Of a stretch of DNA of 64,000 nt, positions 9,702-50,293 are shown one piece after another. Source of the DNA: Escherichia coli (GTDB taxonomy: Bacteria; Pseudomonadota; Gammaproteobacteria; Enterobacterales; Enterobacteriaceae); assembly GCF_024298765.1 (NCBI RefSeq), contig NZ_CP101210.1, one strand, 5' to 3'. The translations under genes and the position numbers were made by a program. Positions within the stretch are counted from its first letter, which is position 1. Each line of letters opens with the position of its first letter. The notes beneath the pieces were generated by a model. That model did not search any database and was not told the DNA's origin. It saw only the letters and a list, made by a program, of their open reading frames with translations.

Positions 9702-11490
9702 AGACTGTCTCATAATCTTTGTCGAACAGGTTGGCTATTTTACCACGAACTGTCAGATGAGAGGTGACCGGATACGCAACCGCAAGATCCCACAAGCTCA
9801 CACCGCCCATTTTGACTGACTTATAGGGCCAGGATGAGTAATCCGAATCGTATCGCGATCCCAGATATTGATAAGTTACACCCCAGTCAAAATCGAACAC
9901 TTGCCAGTCGAGCTGATACTTTACTTGCTGTTTAGGACGACGTTCTAACGGTTTGTCAGTTAAGGCATTTCTGGCATCCGTATAATCGTAGCTAACGGTA
10001 TGCACCAGCGGTCCAGTCTCGAAGTTTGCTGTAGATTCAATACCCTTAATATGCACCTTTGCGTCGTTATAATATCTTTCGCAGTTTTGGGTACAATTAA
10101 TCATATCACTGATATCATTACGGTATCCTGAAATTCGCCAGTTCACTCCTGCTGTTAAGCCTTCAAACGCCCCTTCCCACTGTTTGCTTTTTTCTGGATC
10201 GAGATTCGGATTACCTTTGTAACCATATAACTGACCGAGATTTGGCGCTTTAAATGCAGTTCCATAGGAAGCGATAAAGCGATAGCCTTCAATAAACTCC
10301 CATCCCACACTGGATTGCCATGTTGTGTGGCGATCAAATTGCGAGTTGTCGTCATTACGCACCGCGCCTTCTAACGTAAAATCGCCAACTTTTTGTAATC
10401 CAGTCAGATAAATCCCCGTGTTACGCTGATCGTAACCTTTTGGCAAATATCCAGTTCCAGGAGTAGTGGATTGTTTTTGCCAGTCGATACCAGCTCCAAC
10501 ATCACCGTGACCGACTGTGACGCTATTTGTCCACTGGAGATTGTATTGTTTCATCTCATCCAGGTTAGCTGATGCGTCATAGCGTCCATAATGTGGATCG
10601 TAGTTGTAATCTTTACTATGGCTATAACTGGAAACAAGTTGAGATTGCAGTGTTTCGCCAGCGTAGCGAAGACCCGCATCCCAGCTTTGACTATAAAGTT
10701 TTCGTGTATCAATCAGCGGAGAACCAGGAGAGTACCAGGCGTCATATTTAGTTCGGTTATCATAGCCGTAGCCACGAACAAATCCGCTCCACGTATCAGA
10801 GAAGTTATGTTCAAGTTTGCCGTAGAGTGTTTTACTTAAAAAACCGTCTCTGTCTGACTGTGGCTGCATCCCAGTGTTGCCATAGGCAACGACATCAAAT
10901 CCCCTGGTATAGGCATAATCACCAAGAAGTGTTACTTGAGTATTTTCACCAATTTGTTGCTGAGTGGAAATATCGTAATTTTGATAACTATTACTTCCCC
11001 ATCCGGCTGAAATTTCAGTGCCAGTATTCTCACGGGAGGTAATAATATTTATCACACCGCCAATGGCATCTGAGCCATAAATCGCTGAACGTGGCCCACG
11101 GATATATTCGATACGCTGCACCAAAGCGATCGGAAACTGGCTCAGGTCAGCCGATCCGCTAACACCTGCTAAATTCAGACGTACACCATCAATTAAAACC
11201 AGTGCATGGTTAGAGTTCGTGCCTCGAATAAAAATAGTTGAGAGCTGACCTTCTCCTCCATTTTGTGCAATTGCCACACCAGGCAAACGGCGGAGAACAT
11301 CATTTACAGAGGAAACTTGCCATCGTTCAATATCCTCACGTGTCACGACAGTGACAGGAGCAAGCACGGCACTTAATGGTTCCTGAAAACGGTTAGCAGT
11401 AACAACGAGAGTATCCGGGCTGGTATCCTGTGCCCAAGCAGAAAAAGCTGTGACAGAACACGCCGTCAGCAGCGAAGCTTTTTTAATCAT
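9646..11490 (-). CDS. btuB: TonB-dependent vitamin B12 / colicin E / phage BF23 outer-membrane receptor (614 aa); a diverged allele
   Basis: ORF 9646..11535 contains [35 protein letters not shown]... (signal peptide, TonB box DTLVVTA) and the C-terminal beta-barrel ending SGSYTF. Start set at MIKKAS (ATG 11488-11490). Confidence 0.93.
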
Positions 11491-11731
11491 TGTAAAGCAT
11501 CCACAATAGAAGAAGGATGCCGCAGGTTTCATCAATATTACGCGATGATGAGAACCAGATGCGACGTTAGCCGGCAGGTCTTCGGGCTTGGAGGGGTATC
11601 TAAGATACTAAGAGATGATGACTTCCCACCGGATGGCAGTGTCCGCATAACGCAATCATCGCACCTTTCCTTACCGCTGCGCGTCAGCTCCAGATTCGCA
11701 CTGGATTCCCTATTAACTCACAGGACCGGCA
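11491..11731 (-). ncRNA. Adenosylcobalamin riboswitch (btuB 5' leader)
   Basis: Minus-strand sequence GCCGGTCCTGTGAGTTAATAGGGAATCCAGTGCGAATCTGGAGCTGACGCGCAGCGGTAAGGAAAGGTGCGATGATTGCGTTATGCGGACACTGCCATCCGGTGGGAAGTCATC... matches the well-studied btuB leader. The 5' end is approximate. Confidence 0.85.
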
Positions 11732-19456: not shown

Positions 19457-19860
19457 TATTGCAATCTCCTGTGTTGTAAATAGACGTTTCAAACTTAATT
19501 TTGCGCCTACTACCATACAAGAGAGAAAGAGCGATTATTCAACCATGATCACATTAAAAATAAAAATTTCTACCGAGGAGAAAAAACACCCTCAAAAACC
19601 ACCTGAATAATTAGCTATCATCGTTAAAACAACACGTTAAATAATCACATAACAAACTCCATTAATCATTAAAAATGAACACAGCAATAGAAATGAATTA
19701 TATTCAATTAATTAAAGTATGTATTGGCTGATGTATTGAAAATATAATTTTTATGGGGAGAGTGAAGGTAAAGAAGACGCAAGAATAAAAAGGAATGTGA
19801 CAAATAATGGTTCTGGTTGGGCGTTAAATTTAAGGTCACCAGAATACTGACAAATTTCTG

Positions 19861-19941
19861 CCTGATGCGGCGTAAACGCCTTATCCGCCTACGAAGTGTC
19901 GCACTTTGTAGGCGTGGTAAGCTCCCCATTTTCAGGGGAGC
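19861..19941. repeat. REP-like palindromic element plus a perfect hairpin just downstream of argH
   Basis: GCCTGATGCGGCGTAAACGCCTTATCCGCCTAC is REP-like; GCTCCCC-ATTTTCA-GGGGAGC at 19921-19941 is a perfect 7-bp inverted repeat. Confidence 0.6.
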
Positions 19942-24484: not shown

Positions 24485-24545
24485 GTAGGCCAAACAATGT
24501 CGGATGCGATGCTTACGCATCTTATCCGACCTACACCTTTGGTGT
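24485..24545. repeat. REP (repetitive extragenic palindrome) element
   Basis: GTAGGCCAAACAATGTCGGATGCGATGCTTACGCATCTTATCCGACCTAC, palindromic REP-type sequence downstream of argE. Confidence 0.7.
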
Positions 24546-29354: not shown

Positions 29355-29470
<116 letters not shown>

Positions 29471-39974: not shown

Positions 39975-40125
39975 CCGGCTTGTCCGGGAGTTTGAACGCA
40001 AAATTGCCTGATGCGCTACGCTTATCAGGCCTACGCAATCTCTGCAATATAGTAAATTTACGTACTTTTGTAGGCCGGATAAGGCGTTCACGCCGCATCC
40101 GGCACGCTGTGCCAGTAATCTGAAA
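39975..40125. repeat. BIME / REP cluster
   Basis: GCCTGATGCGCTACGCTTATCAGGCCTAC ... GTAGGCCGGATAAGGCGTTCACGCCGCATCCGGCAC. Confidence 0.8.
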
Positions 40126-40879: not shown

Positions 40880-41785
40880 TCAGATCCTTTTTACACTGAC
40901 GGCTTCTTTTTTCTTACGGCTCACCAGCGCCAGTGCCAGTACAATCAGCACAATACCGCTACCTTCAACTGCCCCCGGATTCTCACCGAGCAGCCACCAG
41001 GAAAAGAGTACGCCGCAAACGGGAACGGCCAGTGTGCTTAAGCTGGCAATACTGGCAGGCAAGTTTTTCAATACAAACAACCATAAGCTCCACGCCAGCG
41101 CTGTCGCCAGAATCGCACTGTAGGCCAGCGCCCAGAACACGGTGGGTTGCCAGTCAATTTCACGTTGCGGCACCAGTAAAGCGACCACGCTCATCACCAG
41201 CGCCGCATACAGCATCTGCCAGGATGTTAGCGACAATAAATCCACGCGCGGATGGCGGGCATACAGACGTTTAGCAACAATCGCGCTCGCCCCCCAACTC
41301 ACACCGGAGAGGATTGCCAGCATGGCGCTTTTCATCGAAGAGAAATCGAGTTGCCACGGCTGCAACACCAAAAATAAGCCGAAAGCGGCAATCAGAATCG
41401 CGAAATATTGTCCGCGTCGCAGGCGTTCACCGAGAAACAACGCGGCGAAAATTACCACCCAGAACGGCATGGTATAGCTCAGGATTGCCACCTTCCCCGC
41501 TCCTCCGCTGACCAGCGCCCACTGCGCCAGGCCGACCATCCCGCAGGTTTGTAACAGGGCAATGGCTAAGGTGTATTTAAACGGTGTCGGGCGCATTCCG
41601 CGACCACGTAATAAAAGGACGATGAATAAAACGAGAGCGCCGAAAATGCAGCGTAAGGCGGTAAAGTCGAAGGCACCGATGTAGCTGGTGACTTGCTTCA
41701 TGAAAATCCAGCTATAACTCCAGATAAGTGTGAGCACAACCAGGCCACTGATTGCCAGTGGGTTGCTCTTTCCTGCGGCAGACAT
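40880..41785 (-). CDS. yijE: EamA/DMT-family inner-membrane transporter (about 301 aa)
   Basis: ORF 40880..41818; start set at [26 protein letters not shown]...; duplicated EamA domains. Confidence 0.85.
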
Positions 41786-41878
41786 GAGAGATCCAGTGTG
41801 TAGTTTTCCTGTGGACACTATACGCCGGTAAAGAAACTTCAGCGACTGCCTGAAAGGCAGTCGCTGAAGAAGGTCAGA

Positions 41879-44113
<2,235 letters not shown>

Positions 44114-44344
44114 TTATAATTGAATTAATCCACGGATGCGATAGTTGAGATCTTACATATTGTTGGTTAAAGAGATGTAGATCAAATTGATCGTAATTAA
44201 GACTTTTTGATTATGTCCGATTTAGGATAAATGCTTTATAAAAAAGGGTTTTAGATTTGTATCCTTCAAGTAATGAGGGAGAAAACAAGGCTGATAACCT
44301 TATTTTCCCGCCCTCATTTCGAGGCAGCATTTTGTGCTCTGTTT

Positions 44345-44378
44345 AAAATTTGTGATCACTGTGTGATTTTCACAAAAG
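44345..44378 (-). terminator. Candidate metF 3' hairpin / weak terminator
   Basis: Minus-strand transcript just after the metF stop: UUUGUGA...UCACAAA arms enclosing a smaller UGUGA-AAA-UCACA repeat and a GTGATCAC palindrome, followed by UUUUAAAC. Confidence 0.3.
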
Positions 44379-44387
44379 GCACACTAT

Positions 44388-45281
<894 letters not shown>

Positions 45282-45314
45282 TTACCTCATCAATCGCTTA
45301 TCGTTATATGTTGT

Positions 45315-45348
45315 GTTGTGCACATCTATCCGTTTAGACGTCCAGATG
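45315..45348 (-). promoter_or_regulatory. metF operator: tandem MetJ boxes
   Basis: Minus strand reads ACATCTGGACGTCTAAACGGATAGATGT, tandem 8-bp repeats resembling the AGACGTCT met-box consensus, 40-70 nt upstream of the metF start. Confidence 0.6.
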
Positions 45349-45659
45349 TAAAGATGAAGGAAAAGCCGAAGGGCGTCAACCGAAAAATAACCAATGATGG
45401 TGAGGAAAAATCAGGGAAGATGAAAAAAACTCATCTTAATTAGAGGCGATAAAAGATTTCTCTATAGCACAATCCACCTCGCACGTTTTGACTCATATTC
45501 TGACAACACAGCGACACCTGGGCTAATTCGAAAAACAACGTCCTGCCACCGGATGGTGATGCTAAGGCATCTGATTCGGCCTGCGCCCTCGCGTAGGCCG
45601 AATACAGGATCTGCGCAATCAACGGGTAACAAACAGTTGAGTCAATTCAGTGCGCACTT

Positions 45660-47213
45660 TTATTTGATATCCTTCACGCGCATACCGTTGAGCTGTTCAT
45701 CCGTAATGGTGTTGCCCGCTTTGAAGTAATCAACCACCGCGTGATAAACGTAATAACCGCCCGTTGTGTTACGCGCTTTCCCTTCGGTAAAGGCGGTAAA
45801 ACCATCTCCACCATCAGCAAGGAAACTCTGAGTAGCAATGTGATAAACCGTCGCATCTTCAATGGGTTTGCCATTCAGAGCCAGTGTGATTACCCGCTGA
45901 CCAACCGGCTTGCTGCTGTCGTACTTCATTTCCAGGCCTTTCGATACCTGTAAAACGCCATTGCTTAAACTTGCGCCGTGTTCCATCAGACTGCGTAATT
46001 GTTTACCCGTGAGTTCCATCGTCACCAGTTCGTTGGGGAACGGGAACGTACTGATGACGCCGCCCATCGTGATCGCCCCTGCGGGGATCTCATTGCGAAT
46101 GCCGCCAGAGTTGGTTAACGCCAATTGGGTGTTTTTACCCGCCGCTACCAGTAAAGCGTCAGCCGCCAGGTTCCCGAGGGAAGCCGATTCACCATAGGCA
46201 CGTTTTAATTCAACCGGCGATTGCGCCACCGTTTGTTGCACCACTTCATCAAGCTTTTTATTCCAGCCGTCGATCACCTGTTTCGTTTGTGGATCGGGCT
46301 TCCACTCGTCAGCGTAAATGGTTTTAAGCTCGAAGTTTTTCACCGTAAAATTATGCGGCTTCTCTTTGTAGTCGAGAACCAGTTTGCCCACATCAATCCC
46401 GCCGCTGTCAGTGGAGAGGATGAGCGTATTGCCGACTTTAATCGGTTCCGGCGTACCCACATGTGCATGTCCGGTGATCAAAATATCCAGCCCTTTCACC
46501 TGACTTGCCGTCTGAATATCTTTATCCAGCGCGCGACGCACATCTGTGCCTCCCATACTGGACTGGCGGGCCGGAACACCTTCATGGATCAGGGCGACGG
46601 TCAAATCAACCTTGCCTTTAAGTTCATCGATATAACGTTGTAGCCATTTAATTTCATCACGCGCCTCAATACCCACTCGCGTGGCAGCAGATACTGTGTC
46701 ATTAAAGGCAAATACACCGTGCAAACCTATAACGCCTATTTTCACACCGTCTTTTTCGATGATGGTATAGGGCTTATCCCAGAATGATTTACTGCTGTTC
46801 TGATAAAAAACATTGCCCTGCACAATCGGGAATTTTGCCTGACTCAACTGTAATAATGTGTTGTCCCAGCCGTGGTCAAATTCATGGTTGCCTATCGTGA
46901 CGGCATCAAACGGCATAGTATTCATAATATCGATAATAGCCTTACCTTTGGTCAGGCTGCTGATATATGGCCCGGTAAAATAGTCGCCCGCATCAAAAAA
47001 CCATGTCGCTTTATTTTTTGCTTTTTCTTGCTTAACCAGCGTAGTGATATTTGCCCAGCCGCCAATATCCCGTTTACCGTCAGCGATCCACGGCACTTTA
47101 TAAGGTTCTACATGCGCATGGAGGTCGTTGGTATAAATAATAGTGACATCTTTAGCGCAAGCCCAGAACGGCAGTGTTAATGCGATACCCGCAGCAAGTA
47201 TTTTAATTTTCAT
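45660..47213 (-). CDS. Secreted bifunctional metallophosphatase / 5'-nucleotidase, UshA/YfkN-like (paralog 1, about 517 aa); accessory
   Basis: ORF 45660..47219 starts on TTG; first ATG is at 47211-47213. Signal peptide [20 protein letters not shown]|KD. Calcineurin-like motifs [27 protein letters not shown], plus a C-terminal 5'-nucleotidase substrate-binding domain. Confidence 0.85.
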
Positions 47214-47345
47214 AAACAATCCCTTTCAGTGAGATAAAGGATTGCTACATTACGTTCTGAAAGACTTATTTATGTGAGAGTAATCACATCTGCAGGGGAT
47301 AGTTGCCGGACAAAATCAACGACCTTGTGAAATCGTTGGTGATAT

Positions 47346-48470
47346 ATGTCGACTCTGTTTACGATTAATGCCTGTAAAACGTTCGGTTGCCGAAATTTGG
47401 GATTGGCCTCATCGGAAGATTACAGTTGGCCAGACTATAAACTGGGTTATCCGGCACTGCACTGTCGGGCATGTGGCAGTTACCCGCCGTTGTTTGACGA
47501 GCAACAATTTCGTGACTGGTTGTCAGTTCACTTATCTACGTGGGCCTCGGAGAAGGGTCATTTCTGCCCGGTATGTTATGGCACAGACATGATTTGTTAT
47601 GGTCACAATCCACAGGGTTCGCAACGCATTCAATGCCGTAACTGCAAAAAAGTCTGGACGCCTAAACAGTATCAGAAAGAAATTACGCATCCCCAGGCCA
47701 TTGAAACCGTTCAACTGTTCATACCCTTTCAAGGGGCCAGCGCAGTACAAAAACTGTATGTTTTAGTCAGTCTTGACGCCACTCGTGGCAACATTCTTCA
47801 TCTCTCCACGAATTATACGCAACATCAGACAGGAGACAGTCTGCGGTACAGTTACAAGGGCAACACAGAACCAACTATGCACCATCGCGATATCGTGCAG
47901 AAGGTAGATATGCGTGAAGCGCAATTCTTGCGCCGGAGCCAGTTCGATGAAATTCAGTATGGCAGTGCTGTACTCAAGCGCAACGGTAAGGGAGCCATAC
48001 TACGCCCGGTTATCACGGCACACGGGCATTTCAGAATACTGAAAATCCGCTATCCAGATGTCAAAACGCATATTATTTCACACGAATGTTTTCTAAGAGG
48101 CGCAATTATTACAGCCTGGGCAGATCAGTTCCGCCAACAACAAGGTGAACTTTGGTTCGTAGAAGAAGAAATCAGTGACAGTAACGCTGATACGCCCTGG
48201 CATTTTAAGGGAACGACATACCATGGTTGGTGGCAAAATCAGTGGCAGCGCTGGGAGCAGGGGAATAACTGCAAGATGGTCTGCCTACTCACGGGAGCCA
48301 GCTTAGAAAGGGGCGCAAATGTTTCTCTGGCAACCAGTCGTTGTTTTATCACATGGCTGACAGACCAACACGACTTTACCCAAAGCGCGTTATTATCCGC
48401 AGGTCGCGTAACGCAAATGCTGACCTCACTGGCGTTAAAATACAATGAATCGCTCACTCCATCTTGTTAG
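47346..48470 (+). CDS. Cysteine-rich hypothetical protein with two N-terminal zinc ribbons (374 aa), the second InsA/IS1-like; function unknown
   Basis: CxxxxC...CxxC (C10, C15, C40, C43) and CPVC-x19-QRIQCRNCKKVW (C74, C77, C97, C100). The second fits the IS1 InsA pattern CPxC...QRYxCxxCRKxW. No recognisable domain in the C-terminal 260 aa. Divergent from paralog 1. Confidence 0.6.
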   Translation: MSTLFTINACKTFGCRNLGLASSEDYSWPDYKLGYPALHCRACGSYPPLFDEQQFRDWLSVHLSTWASEKGHFCPVCYGTDMICYGHNPQGSQRIQCRNCKKVWTPKQYQKEITHPQAIETVQLFIPFQGASAVQKLYVLVSLDATRGNILHLSTNYTQHQTGDSLRYSYKGNTEPTMHHRDIVQKVDMREAQFLRRSQFDEIQYGSAVLKRNGKGAILRPVITAHGHFRILKIRYPDVKTHIISHECFLRGAIITAWADQFRQQQGELWFVEEEISDSNADTPWHFKGTTYHGWWQNQWQRWEQGNNCKMVCLLTGASLERGANVSLATSRCFITWLTDQHDFTQSALLSAGRVTQMLTSLALKYNESLTPSC

Positions 48471-48699
48471 TCAATACACTCGACAAACGACCATAAATTA
48501 AGAGAGATCACTACCTTTCATTTAATTAAATATATAAATGTATGACCGTGAAATATAATCATGGTCAATGTTTAATTAATAACATTATTTGTTACTAAGA
48601 TCACATAATACTTTTCTGAACTATGCTTACATAAAATAAGACACGATGTGCCTTTTATTTAAATAATTCAACAAATGTAACACACCCTATCCAGGAGGG

Positions 48700-50253
48700 A
48701 TGATGAAAACTGTATTTACAACATTATCAGTCATATTCGGCGTGATATTTTCTCACAGTGTTCTAGCTCAGGACGTTACTATTTATTATACGAATGACAT
48801 TCACGCACATGTCAATCCGGCAAAAATCCTCGCTGTTGATAAGAACAGACTTATAGGTGGTATGGCTAATATTGCAGGCATCGTTAATGAAGCGAAGAAA
48901 AAAAGCAAAGATGTGTTTTTCTTTGATGCAGGCGACTATTTTACCGGGCCGTATATCAGCACCCTGACCAAAGGTGAAGCTATTATTGATATCATGAACA
49001 CTATGCCCTTTGATGCGGTGTCTGTTGGTAATCACGAGTTCGATCACGGTGTGCCCAATATGGTGTCTCAGTTATCAAAAGCAAAATTTCCCATTCTGCT
49101 GGGAAATATCTACTACACCGATACGAATAAACCAGTTTGGGATCATCCGTGGACCATTATCGAAAAAGATGGTTTAAAGATTGGTGTGATTGGATTGCAT
49201 GGCGCATTCGCTTTCTATGATACAGTCGCGGCAAAAGCACGTGAAGGCGTAGAAGCCAGAGACGAAATTAAATATTTAAATAAAGCACTTGCAGAATTAA
49301 AAGGCAAAGTCGACATTACCGTTTTGCTAATTCACGAAGGTGTCCCGGCGCGTCAATCAAGCTTTGGTAGTAAAGATGTGGAGCGGCTACTACAGGCAGA
49401 TATTGAGACAGCTAAAAAAGTGAATGGTGTTGATGTCTTAATTACCGGTCACGCACATGTCGGAACACCGCAACCAATAAAAGTTAATAACACATTAATT
49501 GTATCTACCGATGCATACGGCACCAACATCGGAAAACTTGTGCTTGATTACAATCCGAAAACGAAGAAAATTGATAGTTATAATGGTGAGTTAATCACCA
49601 TCTTTGCAGATCAATTTAAACCTGACACCATCGTTCAAAATACTATTGATAAATGGAGTGCAAAGCTTAACAAAATAACACAGGAAGTTGTCGGCCATTC
49701 TCCCGTAGTTTTAACACGTGAGTATGGTAGTTCCTCTTCTACCGGCAACCTTATTCTTGATGCAATGATGGAAAAAACACCTGATGCCGTTGCCGGATTT
49801 CAAAATAGCGGTGGGATTCGAGCTGATTTTCCTAAAGGCGATATCACACTGGGAGATGTTATTAGCACATTCCCCTTTAATAATGACCTCATCGAGATGG
49901 ATTTGACGGGCCGCGATCTCAAATCATTGATGACGCATGCAACCAATCTAACTAACGGTGTGTTACAAGTTTCTAAAAGTGTTGCGGTTGTCTATGACAG
50001 CAAAAAACCCCTCAACCAACGGTTAATCTCTTTCACCATTAACGGCAAACCTGTGGAAGATAATCAAACATATCGTATTGCCACGCACTCCTTTTGTGCC
50101 AGTGGTGGTGACGGTTTTGAAGCATTTTTGAATGGAAAAAATGTGAAGACGATACCGGGAACAACCTCGGCGGAATCTATCATCGATTATTTCAAAAATC
50201 ATAAACCTGTCACCCCAGACTTAACTAAACGAGTCATGGACGTCGCCAAATAA
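48700..50253 (+). CDS. Secreted metallophosphatase / 5'-nucleotidase, UshA-like (paralog 2, 517 aa); accessory
   Basis: AGGAGG RBS at 48693-48698; signal peptide MMKTVFTTLSVIFGVIFSHSVLA|QD; same motif set ([27 protein letters not shown]). The most divergent of the three paralogs, with visibly AT-richer codon usage. Confidence 0.85.
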   Translation: MMKTVFTTLSVIFGVIFSHSVLAQDVTIYYTNDIHAHVNPAKILAVDKNRLIGGMANIAGIVNEAKKKSKDVFFFDAGDYFTGPYISTLTKGEAIIDIMNTMPFDAVSVGNHEFDHGVPNMVSQLSKAKFPILLGNIYYTDTNKPVWDHPWTIIEKDGLKIGVIGLHGAFAFYDTVAAKAREGVEARDEIKYLNKALAELKGKVDITVLLIHEGVPARQSSFGSKDVERLLQADIETAKKVNGVDVLITGHAHVGTPQPIKVNNTLIVSTDAYGTNIGKLVLDYNPKTKKIDSYNGELITIFADQFKPDTIVQNTIDKWSAKLNKITQEVVGHSPVVLTREYGSSSSTGNLILDAMMEKTPDAVAGFQNSGGIRADFPKGDITLGDVISTFPFNNDLIEMDLTGRDLKSLMTHATNLTNGVLQVSKSVAVVYDSKKPLNQRLISFTINGKPVEDNQTYRIATHSFCASGGDGFEAFLNGKNVKTIPGTTSAESIIDYFKNHKPVTPDLTKRVMDVAK

Positions 50254-50293
50254 AATCTCATTTATCAGTCAATTTATTTAACAAGGAATGCGA

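What the first reader, a model, noticed from the sequence alone, without database searches (positions are those of the whole stretch)
45346..45659. Left junction of the island: about 310 bp of non-coding DNA between the metF operator and nucleotidase 1
This stretch holds a partial REP-like palindrome (CGGCCTGCGCCCTCGCGTAGGCCG around 45568-45591) and A-rich tracts, but no ORF with a plausible RBS. It is where the backbone-island boundary must lie. REP fragments at island borders often mark recombination scars.
Basis: inference. Interest (0 to 1): 0.3.

Follow-up and report, generated by a model that had tools for sequence, protein, structure and literature searches.

The report
Gene spacer with decayed REP repeat
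This stretch is ordinary non-coding DNA between a nucleotidase gene and the methionine gene metF: it holds metF's control sites and a worn-out copy of a common bacterial repeat, and it is where E. coli K-12 stops matching because K-12-type strains lost the neighbouring genes, not because this strain gained them here.

Summary
The palindrome is real but sits at 45577-45600, 9 nt right of the stated position. The A-tracts are real, and no credible ORF exists. K-12 collinearity does end inside the segment, at 45433/45434, and resumes at the metL stop codon (53068/53069).

- **REP element.** The palindrome is a degenerate REP-family element: a full unit at 45547-45586 plus an inverted truncated tail at 45591-45608. 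It lies about 115-175 bp inside the non-K-12 DNA. The same element follows the nucleotidase gene (nuc1) in Pseudocitrobacter and E. whittamii, so it is an old 3' flank element, not an insertion scar.
- **Breakpoint.** It abuts a conserved MetR-type palindrome (45417-45437), the distal edge of the metF control region shared by 13 genera or lineages.
- **Polarity.** metL-znr-nuc1-metF is syntenic across Enterobacteriaceae. The K-12 state (3578 of 5426 genomes, a 198-bp filler carrying a canonical REP) is therefore a loss.
- **Acquired block.** In this strain it starts at about 47.3-47.4 kb, not here.
- **Mobile-element signs.** There are no flanking repeats, tRNA or integrase-like ORF.

The island is already published as GR 31 of APEC strain BEN2908. 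Low interest.

The parts
44388..45278 (-). metF coding sequence (methylenetetrahydrofolate reductase)
   Evidence: ORF list; RefSeq annotation of matching records.
45320..45359 (-). MetJ operator: five tandem 8-bp met boxes. On the metF strand they read CTTCATCT TTACATCT GGACGTCT AAACGGAT AGATGTGC.
   Evidence: Read directly from the sequence and seen as palindrome I1. Nearly invariant across 13 genera or lineages. Five met boxes at metF are stated in PMC3274233. The box register is my own reading.
45351..45378 (-). Putative metF promoter: -35 TTGACG (45373-45378) and -10-like CATCTT (45351-45356), 16-nt spacer
   Evidence: Inference from the sequence and its cross-genus conservation. The consensus scan did not call it. 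No transcription start site was checked.
45401..45413 (.). Second, weaker MetR-like site. It reads TGATTTTTCCTCA on the metF strand and TGAATATTCCTCA in most other genera.
   Evidence: Conserved block in the multi-genus alignment. The motif assignment is inference.
45417..45437 (.). MetR-type palindrome AAGATGA-N7-TCATCTT (core TGAA-N5-CTCA at 45421-45433). It is the distal edge of the conserved metF control region.
   Evidence: the motif is present in 12 of 13 non-E. coli lineages, and conservation stops immediately beyond it. GATGA-N7-TCATC occurs twice in the window against 0.08 expected. The MetR consensus is TGAANNNNNTTCA (PMC13393422) or ATGAA-N5-TTCAT, with metF a conserved regulon member (PMC4239095).
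45433..45434 (.). Point where collinearity with K-12-type strains ends (left endpoint of the K-12-lineage deletion or replacement)
   Evidence: K-12 reads AAGATGAAAAAACTTCA|GGATGG and the window reads AAGATGAAAAAAACTCA|TCTTAA. BLAST identity stops at 45428, and the core TCA aligns through 45433.
45438..45546 (-). Proximal spacer, evolving about neutrally. It may be a decayed 3' remnant of the LysR-family gene that occupies this position in Citrobacter, Klebsiella and Pseudocitrobacter.
   Evidence: It is 75% identical between the window and the SCPM allele, against 82.7% at nuc1 third codon positions. An nhmmer DNA profile of the LysR 3' ends gives a collinear hit at E=0.0017, with none of 300 shuffles reported. 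tblastn, BLASTP and a protein profile are not significant.
45547..45608 (+). Degenerate REP-family element. A full unit lies at 45547-45586 (ACCGGATGGTGATGCTAAGGCATCTGATTCGGCCTGCG), and an inverted truncated tail lies at 45591-45608.
   Evidence: Homologous copies lie after nuc1 in L007:11582-11637 and L033, and between metL and znr in L018:8690-8744 and L028. The SCPM allele carries a compensatory C-G to U-A change and repairs the one mismatch.
45609..45659 (-). Distal spacer directly after the nuc1 stop codon. The first ~15 nt (AAAGTGCGCACTGAA) are shared with other Escherichia and Pseudocitrobacter.
45660..47219 (-). nuc1: UshA-like metallophosphatase/5'-nucleotidase. It is ancestral at this locus.
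   Evidence: Pfam Metallophos + 5_nucleotid_C. Synteny in at least 9 genera. 96-100% DNA identity to E. coli strains that have only nuc1+znr. GC about 0.50.
47292..47378 (.). Actual left edge of the block that differs between this 'full island' strain and the ancestral-type (nuc1+znr only) allele
   Evidence: Mismatch density against p11B jumps at 47378. Identity falls from 96-100% to 88, 80, 74 and finally 59%. GC drops to 0.29-0.47 from about 48500.
53068..53069 (.). Right boundary: all three alleles become collinear again at the metL stop codon

Best explanation
The 381-bp nuc1-metF intergenic region is made of two parts.

**metF-proximal part, 45279-45437.** This is the metF control region: five MetJ boxes, the likely promoter, and two MetR-type sites. 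Its outermost element is a palindrome, AAGATGA-N7-TCATCTT. It is conserved from Escherichia to Klebsiella.

**Distal part, 45438-45659.** This is the fast-evolving 3' flank of the nucleotidase gene nuc1.
- It carries a decayed REP-family element: one full unit plus an inverted truncated tail.
- Its most likely role is the usual one for REPs downstream of a gene. It would form a stable stem-loop at the end of the nuc1 transcript that protects it from 3' exonucleases. It may also help stop read-through into the co-oriented metF promoter. This role is inferred and was not shown here.
- The 109 nt between the REP and the MetR site may be what remains of a LysR-family regulator gene. Relatives carry a decarboxylase-LysR gene pair at this position. 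This point is weakly supported.

**Why K-12 stops matching.** K-12 diverges at 45433/45434 because K-12-type strains lost znr and nuc1. A deletion or allelic replacement removed everything between the MetR core and the metL stop codon. It left a 198-bp filler with its own canonical REP. Both endpoints sit exactly at the limits of selected sequence.

**What this strain gained.** The extra genes (a divergent znr allele, nuc2, nuc3, tsx-like) replaced the region from about 47.3-47.4 kb to 53068. The finding's segment is therefore ancestral backbone, not an island edge.
For: Shown by tool results:
- **Breakpoints.**
- **Allele counts.** K-12 filler in 3578 genomes; spacer in 1832, once each; full-island right junction in 660-663.
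- **Synteny.** metB-metL-znr-nuc1-(0.2-5.6 kb)-metF-katG holds in at least 9 genera and 2 other Escherichia lineages.
- **Limit of conservation.** Cross-genus similarity upstream of metF always ends at 45424-45438. A different cargo begins there in each lineage: CMD+LysR in Citrobacter, Klebsiella and Pseudocitrobacter; LacI+PTS in E. whittamii; 5.4 kb in MOD1-EC7003; almost nothing in C. youngae and S. arizonae.
- **REP identity.**
- **Orthologous REP after nuc1 in other genera.**
- **Hairpins elsewhere.** A GC-rich hairpin follows the nuc1 stop in most of the other loci examined, including every locus where nuc1 lies beside metF.
- **Folding.** z is about -5, and the most divergent E. coli allele carries a compensatory change.
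- **Evolutionary rate.** The spacer diverges about as fast as synonymous sites, while the control region is constrained.
- **Identity and GC profiles.** They place the acquired block at about 47.3 kb or beyond.
- **No mobile-element signatures.** No tRNA gene and no flanking repeats.

From the literature:
- The MetR consensus, and metF as a member of the MetR regulon (PMC13393422, PMC4239095).
Against: - No U-tract directly follows the hairpin, and no simple terminator is called. Only a U-rich run, GUUGUUUUUCG, lies 3 nt after a predicted branched structure. The 163-nt context does not fold better than shuffles (z -0.74). The terminator or stabiliser role is therefore unproven.
- This copy matches the canonical Y-type REP consensus only weakly. 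Its score of 11 is reached by 3.8-6.5% of random 101-nt windows. It has no near-identical second copy in E. coli.
- The published MetR footprint at metF (Cowan et al. 1993) could not be read. The site assignment rests on consensus and conservation only.
- The window core has one mismatch (CTCA for TTCA).
- The LysR-remnant idea fails at protein level. The SCPM allele also aligns to the DNA profile at a different offset.
- The origin of the K-12 filler is unknown. It has no homology to any outgroup interval.
- E. fergusonii, E. albertii and S. enterica subsp. enterica could not be examined at this locus. The timing of the loss is therefore not fixed.
Confidence: 0.75

Rival explanations
1. A 7.6-kb island (45434-53067) was inserted into a K-12-like metL-metF intergenic region. 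The segment is the insertion junction, and the REP fragment is the recombination scar.
For: K-12 collinearity does end here and resumes at metL. The block is absent from 3578 of 5426 genomes. A REP-related sequence lies within 175 bp. The region is listed as strain-variable 'GR 31 metL..metF' (PMC12928451).
Against: - znr-nuc1 lies between metL and metF in at least 9 other genera.
- nuc1 and the spacer are 96-100% identical to strains that lack nuc2, nuc3 and tsx, and nuc1 has backbone-like GC.
- The same REP element follows nuc1 in other genera.
- K-12 has 198 bp of unrelated filler rather than an empty site.
- There are no flanking direct or inverted repeats, no tRNA gene and no integrase-like ORF.
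Confidence: 0.06
2. The REP-like hairpin is a functionless, decaying selfish repeat. The spacer has no role beyond separating nuc1 from the metF promoter.
For: The copy is degenerate. The spacer diverges at about the synonymous rate. There is no adjacent U-tract. Other genera have different, unrelated hairpins or almost no spacer at all.
Against: Stem pairing is kept, and even improved, in the allele that is 18-25% diverged, through a two-sided change. Most of the other loci examined keep some strong hairpin right after the nuc1 stop, which suggests that a 3' structure is selected even though its sequence is not.
Confidence: 0.3
3. The spacer encodes a small RNA or small protein. One candidate is the 29-aa remnant of the ORF that PGAP annotates as a 44-aa hypothetical protein in K-12-type strains.
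For: PGAP annotates WP_000660586.1 across the K-12 breakpoint. Structured RNA is possible.
Against: The ORF runs antisense through the metF promoter and operator, and it changes length and C-terminus between alleles. Nothing is annotated in the listed records of strains that carry the spacer. There is no Rfam match, no promoter-like site, and the divergence is neutral.
Confidence: 0.03

Closest known systems
REP / palindromic units (PU) and BIMEs of Enterobacteriaceae
   Same: The element is a ~38-nt imperfect palindrome with a GCCGGATG-type head and a CTTATYCGGCCTAC-type tail. It is extragenic, lies 3' of a gene, and is paired tail-to-tail with a second (truncated) unit as in a BIME. It belongs to a subtype with about 19 detectable copies per E. 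coli genome. Canonical copies lie elsewhere in the window, at 40070-40103 and 29418-29451.
   Different: The copy is degenerate: head ACCGGATG, tail TGATTCGGCCTGC. The second unit is only a 13-18-nt tail. No near-identical copy exists elsewhere. It is inherited with nuc1 across genera rather than being a recent insertion.
MetR (LysR-family) operator, consensus TGAA-N5-TTCA / ATGAA-N5-TTCAT
   Same: The palindrome at 45417-45437 contains TGAA-N5-CTCA (TGAA-N5-TTCA in K-12 and most genera). It lies upstream of metF, which is a documented MetR regulon member.
   Different: Binding at this exact position was not verified here. The window copy has one core mismatch but a longer 7+7 perfect outer palindrome. 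K-12 keeps the core and has lost the 4 outer nucleotides of the distal arm.
GR 31 (metL..metF) of APEC BEN2908, shared with UTI89, RS218 and other ExPEC (PMC12928451)
   Same: It is the same locus with the same gene set: three UshA-like nucleotidases and a Tsx-like channel, about 7.8 kb between metL and metF. The window's island-specific junction segments are 100% identical to chicken isolates, and its right-junction segment is 100% identical to UTI89.
   Different: That paper treats the whole interval as one strain-specific genomic region. The comparison here splits it into an ancestral part (nuc1, the spacer, and the resident znr position) and a later-acquired part (from about 47.3 kb to 53068).
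tRNA- or integrase-associated genomic islands
   Same: The region has variable presence among strains, and part of it has lower GC.
   Different: It has no tRNA gene, no integrase-like ORF and no flanking direct repeats. Its boundaries coincide with the ends of selected sequence rather than with attachment sites.

Membership tests
REP / PU (BIME) repeats | ~35-40-nt imperfect palindrome with conserved head (GCCGGATG) and tail (CTTATCCGGCCTAC) | tested here: met
   The element aligns over the full length of the unit to the REP consensus. It also aligns to four cross-genus copies and three canonical REPs. The head has one mismatch. The tail is degenerate (CTGATTCGGCCTGC). The similarity score alone is only marginal against random windows (3.8-6.5%).
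REP / PU (BIME) repeats | Dispersed, multi-copy and extragenic in the genome | tested here: met
   The subtype consensus GCCGGATGGCGATGCTTACGCATCTTATCCGGCCTACG finds 4-33 places per E. coli genome, median 19. The window holds 2 further members against 0 expected. This particular copy is too diverged to retrieve the others by BLAST.
REP / PU (BIME) repeats | Forms a stable stem-loop in the transcript | tested here: met
   Minimum free energy is -35 to -39 kcal/mol for 73 nt, with z about -5 on both strands.
REP / PU (BIME) repeats | Bound or mobilised by host factors (RAYT transposase, IHF, gyrase, Pol I) | not testable with these tools
   This needs biochemistry. No RAYT gene was looked for.
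Rho-independent terminator | GC-rich hairpin followed immediately by a U-tract | tested here: not met
   No site is called in 45200-45800 on either strand. Only GUUGUUUUUCG lies 3 nt after a predicted branched structure.
MetR operator | 13-bp dyad TGAA-N5-TTCA upstream of a met-regulon gene | tested here: met
   Window 45421-45433 reads TGAAAAAAACTCA (one mismatch). K-12 reads TGAAAAAACTTCA (perfect). The site is conserved in 12 of 13 other lineages. The consensus comes from PMC13393422 and PMC4239095.
MetR operator | Demonstrated MetR binding and a regulatory effect at this site | not testable with these tools
   Cowan et al. 1993 (PMC206665) is not held. No binding data are available here.
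Integrative genomic island border | Flanking direct repeats (att sites or target duplication) | tested here: not met
   The longest word shared between 45346-45659 and 52851-53100 is 8 nt direct and 7 nt inverted. Both are at or below the shuffle mean. Within +-40 nt of the junctions the longest is 5 nt.
Integrative genomic island border | Adjacent tRNA/tmRNA gene or integrase/recombinase gene | tested here: not met
   No tRNA gene lies in 41000-57000. The ORFs are nucleotidases, a Tsx-like porin and a Zn-ribbon protein.
Integrative genomic island border | The empty site in strains lacking the island equals the junction sequences joined | tested here: not met
   K-12-type strains carry 198 bp of unrelated filler instead.

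The most novel reading that the evidence does not exclude
The few nucleotides just beyond the MetR operator of metF may be a recurrently used gene-exchange hotspot across Enterobacteriaceae. At least seven different contents start at the same point:
- almost nothing in C. youngae and S. arizonae;
- about 110 nt in Kosakonia and Phytobacter;
- the 226-nt REP spacer in E. coli;
- a decarboxylase+LysR pair in Citrobacter, Klebsiella and Pseudocitrobacter;
- LacI+PTS in E. whittamii;
- 4.3-5.4 kb blocks in K. spallanzanii and MOD1-EC7003;
- the REP-bearing filler in K-12-type strains.

REP-family elements are present in several of these, possibly as the recombination substrate. On this reading the locus would be a natural example of REP-associated cassette turnover bounded by a transcription-factor site.
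Probability: 0.25. Interest if true: 0.35.

Novelty: new member of a known kind. Interest (0 to 1): 0.15.

Why it matters
The practical value is in annotation and interpretation.
- The metL..metF 'genomic region' of ExPEC and APEC strains should not be read as a single acquired island. Its metF-side third (nuc1 and this spacer) is ancestral enterobacterial backbone that K-12, O157 and most other E. coli have lost.
- The boundary also marks the outer limit of the metF control region. It shows that K-12-type strains kept the MetR core site but lost the outer 4 nt of its distal arm. That small difference could be tested for an effect on metF regulation.

Nothing here challenges current understanding.

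Tried and rejected
None beyond chance.
- **REP-REP recombination as the cause of the K-12 deletion.** Rejected. The K-12 sequence between its REP and the MetR site has no similarity to window 45434-45546. E. coli partial alleles have no REP between metL and znr, because znr overlaps metL.
- **K-12 filler derived from some part of the ancestral interval.** No alignment above shuffles in 13 outgroup loci.
- **Spacer as a remnant of cargo genes.** tblastn with the Citrobacter LysR and CMD proteins, BLASTP of the 56-aa ORF, tblastx against all loci, and a protein profile of the LysR C-termini are all at noise level. Only a DNA profile gives a weak collinear hit, so this is kept as a minority sub-hypothesis.
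- **Known RNA families.** None at E<=1.
- **Promoter and terminator scans of 45200-45800.** Nothing found.
- **A fourth allele in strain HS-02 at 81% identity.** It turned out to be C/T-rich low-complexity sequence with a 43-nt T run, which is an assembly artefact.
- **A fuzzy-regex REP scan.** It timed out and was replaced by blastn-short and local alignment.
- **The primary papers on the metF control region and MetR** (PMC326410, PMC206665). Not available.

Full report
**Layout and source**

The window is E. coli. The query 45200-53100 is 100% identical to chicken isolate CS18F, apart from an IS1 in that strain. The 217-bp right-junction segment (52851-53067) is 100% identical to UTI89.

The local gene order is as follows:

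| Gene | Strand | Coordinates |
|---|---|---|
| katG | - | 41879-44098 |
| metF | - | 44388-45278 |
| nuc1 (UshA-like nucleotidase) | - | 45660-47219 |
| znr (Cys-rich Zn-ribbon protein) | + | 47346-48470 |
| nuc2 | + | 48700-50253 |
| nuc3 | + | 50288-51913 |
| tsx-like porin | + | 51990-52850 |
| metL | - | 53068-55500 |

The same interval is published as 'GR 31 metL..metF' of APEC strain BEN2908 (PMC12928451).

**Checking the observation**

- The quoted palindrome exists once, at 45577-45600, which is 9 nt right of the stated position.
- The complete inverted repeat is 45574-45586 / 45591-45603: 13-nt arms, one mismatch, 4-nt loop.
- The A-tracts lie at 45382-45429.
- No credible ORF is present, and no gene is annotated under the spacer in the listed example records. 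There is no Rfam match and no consensus promoter or simple terminator.

The observation therefore stands.

**Where K-12 stops matching**

The K-12 derivative J53 is 98% identical from metF up to 45428 and again from 53069, which is the metL stop codon. Aligning the conserved dyad core moves the left limit to 45433/45434.

Between these points K-12 has 198 bp that match nothing in the window. That filler contains a canonical REP, GCCGGATTCGTCGTAAACGCTTAATCCGGCCTA, whose surroundings recur elsewhere in the same genomes.

Among 5426 complete genomes:
- 3578 carry the K-12 filler.
- 1832 carry the spacer 45429-45659, always once.
- 660-663 of those 1832 also carry the right-hand junction of the full island.
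- About 1170 therefore have a 'partial' allele with only nuc1 and znr. In the three partial alleles examined, znr overlaps the 3' end of metL by 37 nt.

**Polarity**

A scan of one genome per species with the nuc1 protein returned loci from many Enterobacteriaceae. The order metB-metL-znr-nuc1-(0.2-5.6 kb)-metF-katG holds in:
- eight Citrobacter representatives;
- K. pneumoniae, K. oxytoca and K. spallanzanii;
- Kosakonia, two Phytobacter species, Kluyvera, Pseudocitrobacter and Superficieibacter;
- Salmonella enterica subsp. arizonae;
- E. whittamii and Escherichia sp. MOD1-EC7003.

In all of these znr abuts metL, as in the E. coli partial allele. The partial allele is therefore the ancestral arrangement. 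The K-12 type is a loss, and the full island is a later gain.

Three results agree with this.
- The window is 96-100% identical to partial-allele strains from metF through nuc1 up to about 47291. Mismatches then become dense from 47378, and identity decays to 59% by the end of znr.
- GC is about 0.50 in nuc1 but 0.29-0.47 from about 48500 to 53000.
- There are no shared repeats at the two K-12 boundaries, no tRNA gene and no integrase-like ORF.

**What sits at the breakpoint**

I aligned the 262 nt upstream of the metF ATG from 15 sequences. They share:
- the ribosome-binding region;
- five MetJ boxes (45320-45359);
- a TTGACG -35-like hexamer;
- a TGAW-N5-CTCA motif (45401-45413);
- a palindrome AGATGAA-N5/7-TTCATCT (45417-45437).

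All similarity stops beyond that palindrome. Its core fits the MetR consensus TGAA-N5-TTCA (PMC13393422) or ATGAA-N5-TTCAT, and metF is a conserved MetR regulon member (PMC4239095).

K-12 keeps a perfect core (TGAAAAAACTTCA) but has lost the outer four nucleotides of the distal arm.

Each lineage has different content immediately distal to this site:
- In C. youngae and S. arizonae, only the nuc1 terminator hairpin.
- In Kosakonia and Phytobacter, about 110 nt.
- In Citrobacter, Klebsiella and Pseudocitrobacter, a carboxymuconolactone-decarboxylase-family gene plus a LysR-family gene.
- In E. whittamii, LacI+PTS EIIBC.
- In K. spallanzanii and MOD1-EC7003, larger blocks.

The K-12 breakpoint thus coincides with the edge of selected sequence on the left (the MetR site) and on the right (the metL stop).

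**What the palindrome is**

On the + strand, 45547-45586 (ACCGGATGGTGATGCTAAGGCATCTGATTCGGCCTGCG) aligns over the full length of a REP unit. It is followed by an inverted truncated tail (GCGTAGGCCGAATACAGG, 45591-45608).

- **Same architecture elsewhere.** It occurs just after nuc1 in Pseudocitrobacter (73% over 56 nt) and in E. whittamii. It also occurs between metL and znr in Citrobacter sp. FP75 (79% over 56 nt) and Superficieibacter.
- **Family size.** A consensus of these copies hits a median of 19 places per E. coli genome. A degenerate pattern finds two more copies in the window against none expected.
- **Degree of decay.** The copy is degenerate. Its score against the canonical consensus is reached by 4-7% of random windows, and BLAST finds no second near-identical copy.
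- **Folding.** The element folds strongly on either strand, with z about -5. The most divergent E. coli allele (SCPM-O-B-8794) has a two-sided C-G to U-A change and repairs the single mismatch.
- **Hairpins after nuc1.** A GC-rich hairpin follows the nuc1 stop in most of the other loci examined, including every locus where nuc1 lies beside metF. The sequences are often unrelated.

The rest of the spacer diverges at about the rate of nuc1 third-codon positions (75-82% against 82.7%). The metF control region is 94% conserved in the same comparison.

**Mechanism**

I infer that the element acts as REPs downstream of genes usually do. It would be a 3' stem-loop that stabilises the nuc1 message and helps to end transcription before the co-oriented metF promoter.

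This is not demonstrated.
- No U-tract abuts the stem.
- Only a U-rich run follows a predicted branched structure.
- The wider 163-nt context is not unusually stable.

**Origin of the spacer**

MOD1-EC7003 retains about 70 nt of the decarboxylase gene's 3' end right after the REP hairpin, as in Pseudocitrobacter. The decarboxylase-LysR pair was therefore present in an Escherichia ancestor.

In E. coli the sequences diverge right after ...CCATCCGG (about 45547). A DNA profile of LysR 3' ends aligns collinearly to 45449-45555 (E=0.0017, no shuffle reported). Protein-level tests are at noise, and the SCPM allele aligns at another offset. I give the LysR-remnant idea a probability of about 0.4.

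**Verdict**

- The element is not a junction scar.
- The segment is ancestral DNA rather than an island edge.
- The event that created the K-12 difference was a loss in the K-12-type lineage.
- The finding is ordinary and largely explained by known element types.

Noticed in passing
window 47346-48470: 'znr' is a 374-aa Cys-rich protein with only a sub-threshold IS1/IS1595-type Zn-ribbon match. It is the divergently transcribed partner of nuc1 in nearly all of the enterobacterial loci recovered. In the 'partial' E. coli alleles examined its 3' end overlaps the metL 3' end by 37 nt. It may be a regulator of the nucleotidase genes or a domesticated transposase fragment.
   Followed up: partly
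L011, L032, L042, L008 (Enterobacter, Citrobacter, E. coli SCPM-O-B-8794, Escherichia sp. MOD1-EC7003): A second, paralogous cluster znr-nuc1-nuc2-tsx-nuc3 lies away from the met genes. Its gene order differs from the window's nuc2-nuc3-tsx, and identity is only 57-87%. It is a possible type of source for the block acquired in this strain.
   Followed up: no
window 48500-53000: GC is 0.29-0.47 across nuc2, nuc3 and the tsx-like gene, against about 0.50 in nuc1 and 0.56-0.59 in metL. This fits a foreign origin for only the right-hand two-thirds of the 'island'.
   Followed up: partly
L082:6029-6990 (E. coli HS-02, NZ_CP172818.1): About 1 kb of C/T-rich low-complexity sequence and a 43-nt T run replace nuc1-znr. 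This is almost certainly a long-read assembly artefact, not a real allele.
   Followed up: yes
L001:1655-1789; window 45354-45443: PGAP annotates a 44-aa hypothetical protein (WP_000660586.1) in K-12-type strains. It runs antisense over the metF promoter and across the breakpoint. In the window the same frame stops after 29 aa. It is probably a spurious gene call.
   Followed up: partly
L007 (Pseudocitrobacter vendiensis) 10001-11561: nuc1 is 97% identical in protein to E. coli, while the flanking metL and metF are 93% and katG 89%. This hints at exchange of nuc1 between the two genera. This assembly also has a frameshift near the nuc1 3' end.
   Followed up: no
L006:9298-9699 (Escherichia sp. 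MOD1-EC7003): A fragment resembling the N-terminus of serine hydroxymethyltransferase (glyA) lies among the cargo between nuc1 and metF.
   Followed up: no
window 53032-53055 and 52948-52967: A perfect 11+2+11 palindrome (AAAAGCTGGCA AC TGCCAGCTTTT) lies 13 nt after the metL stop. A terminator-like hairpin with a T-run lies on the - strand about 100 nt after the stop. Both belong to the island-specific right junction.
   Followed up: partly
window 19860-19887, 24508-24534, 29371-29451, 40006-40103: Canonical REP/BIME clusters occur here, including a 34/34 match to the Y-type consensus at 40070-40103. They served as internal positive controls.
   Followed up: partly
(E. coli genomes): Two of the places matching this chromosomal locus are on records labelled as plasmids. 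The 100% match in strain CS18F is interrupted by an IS1A copy.
   Followed up: no
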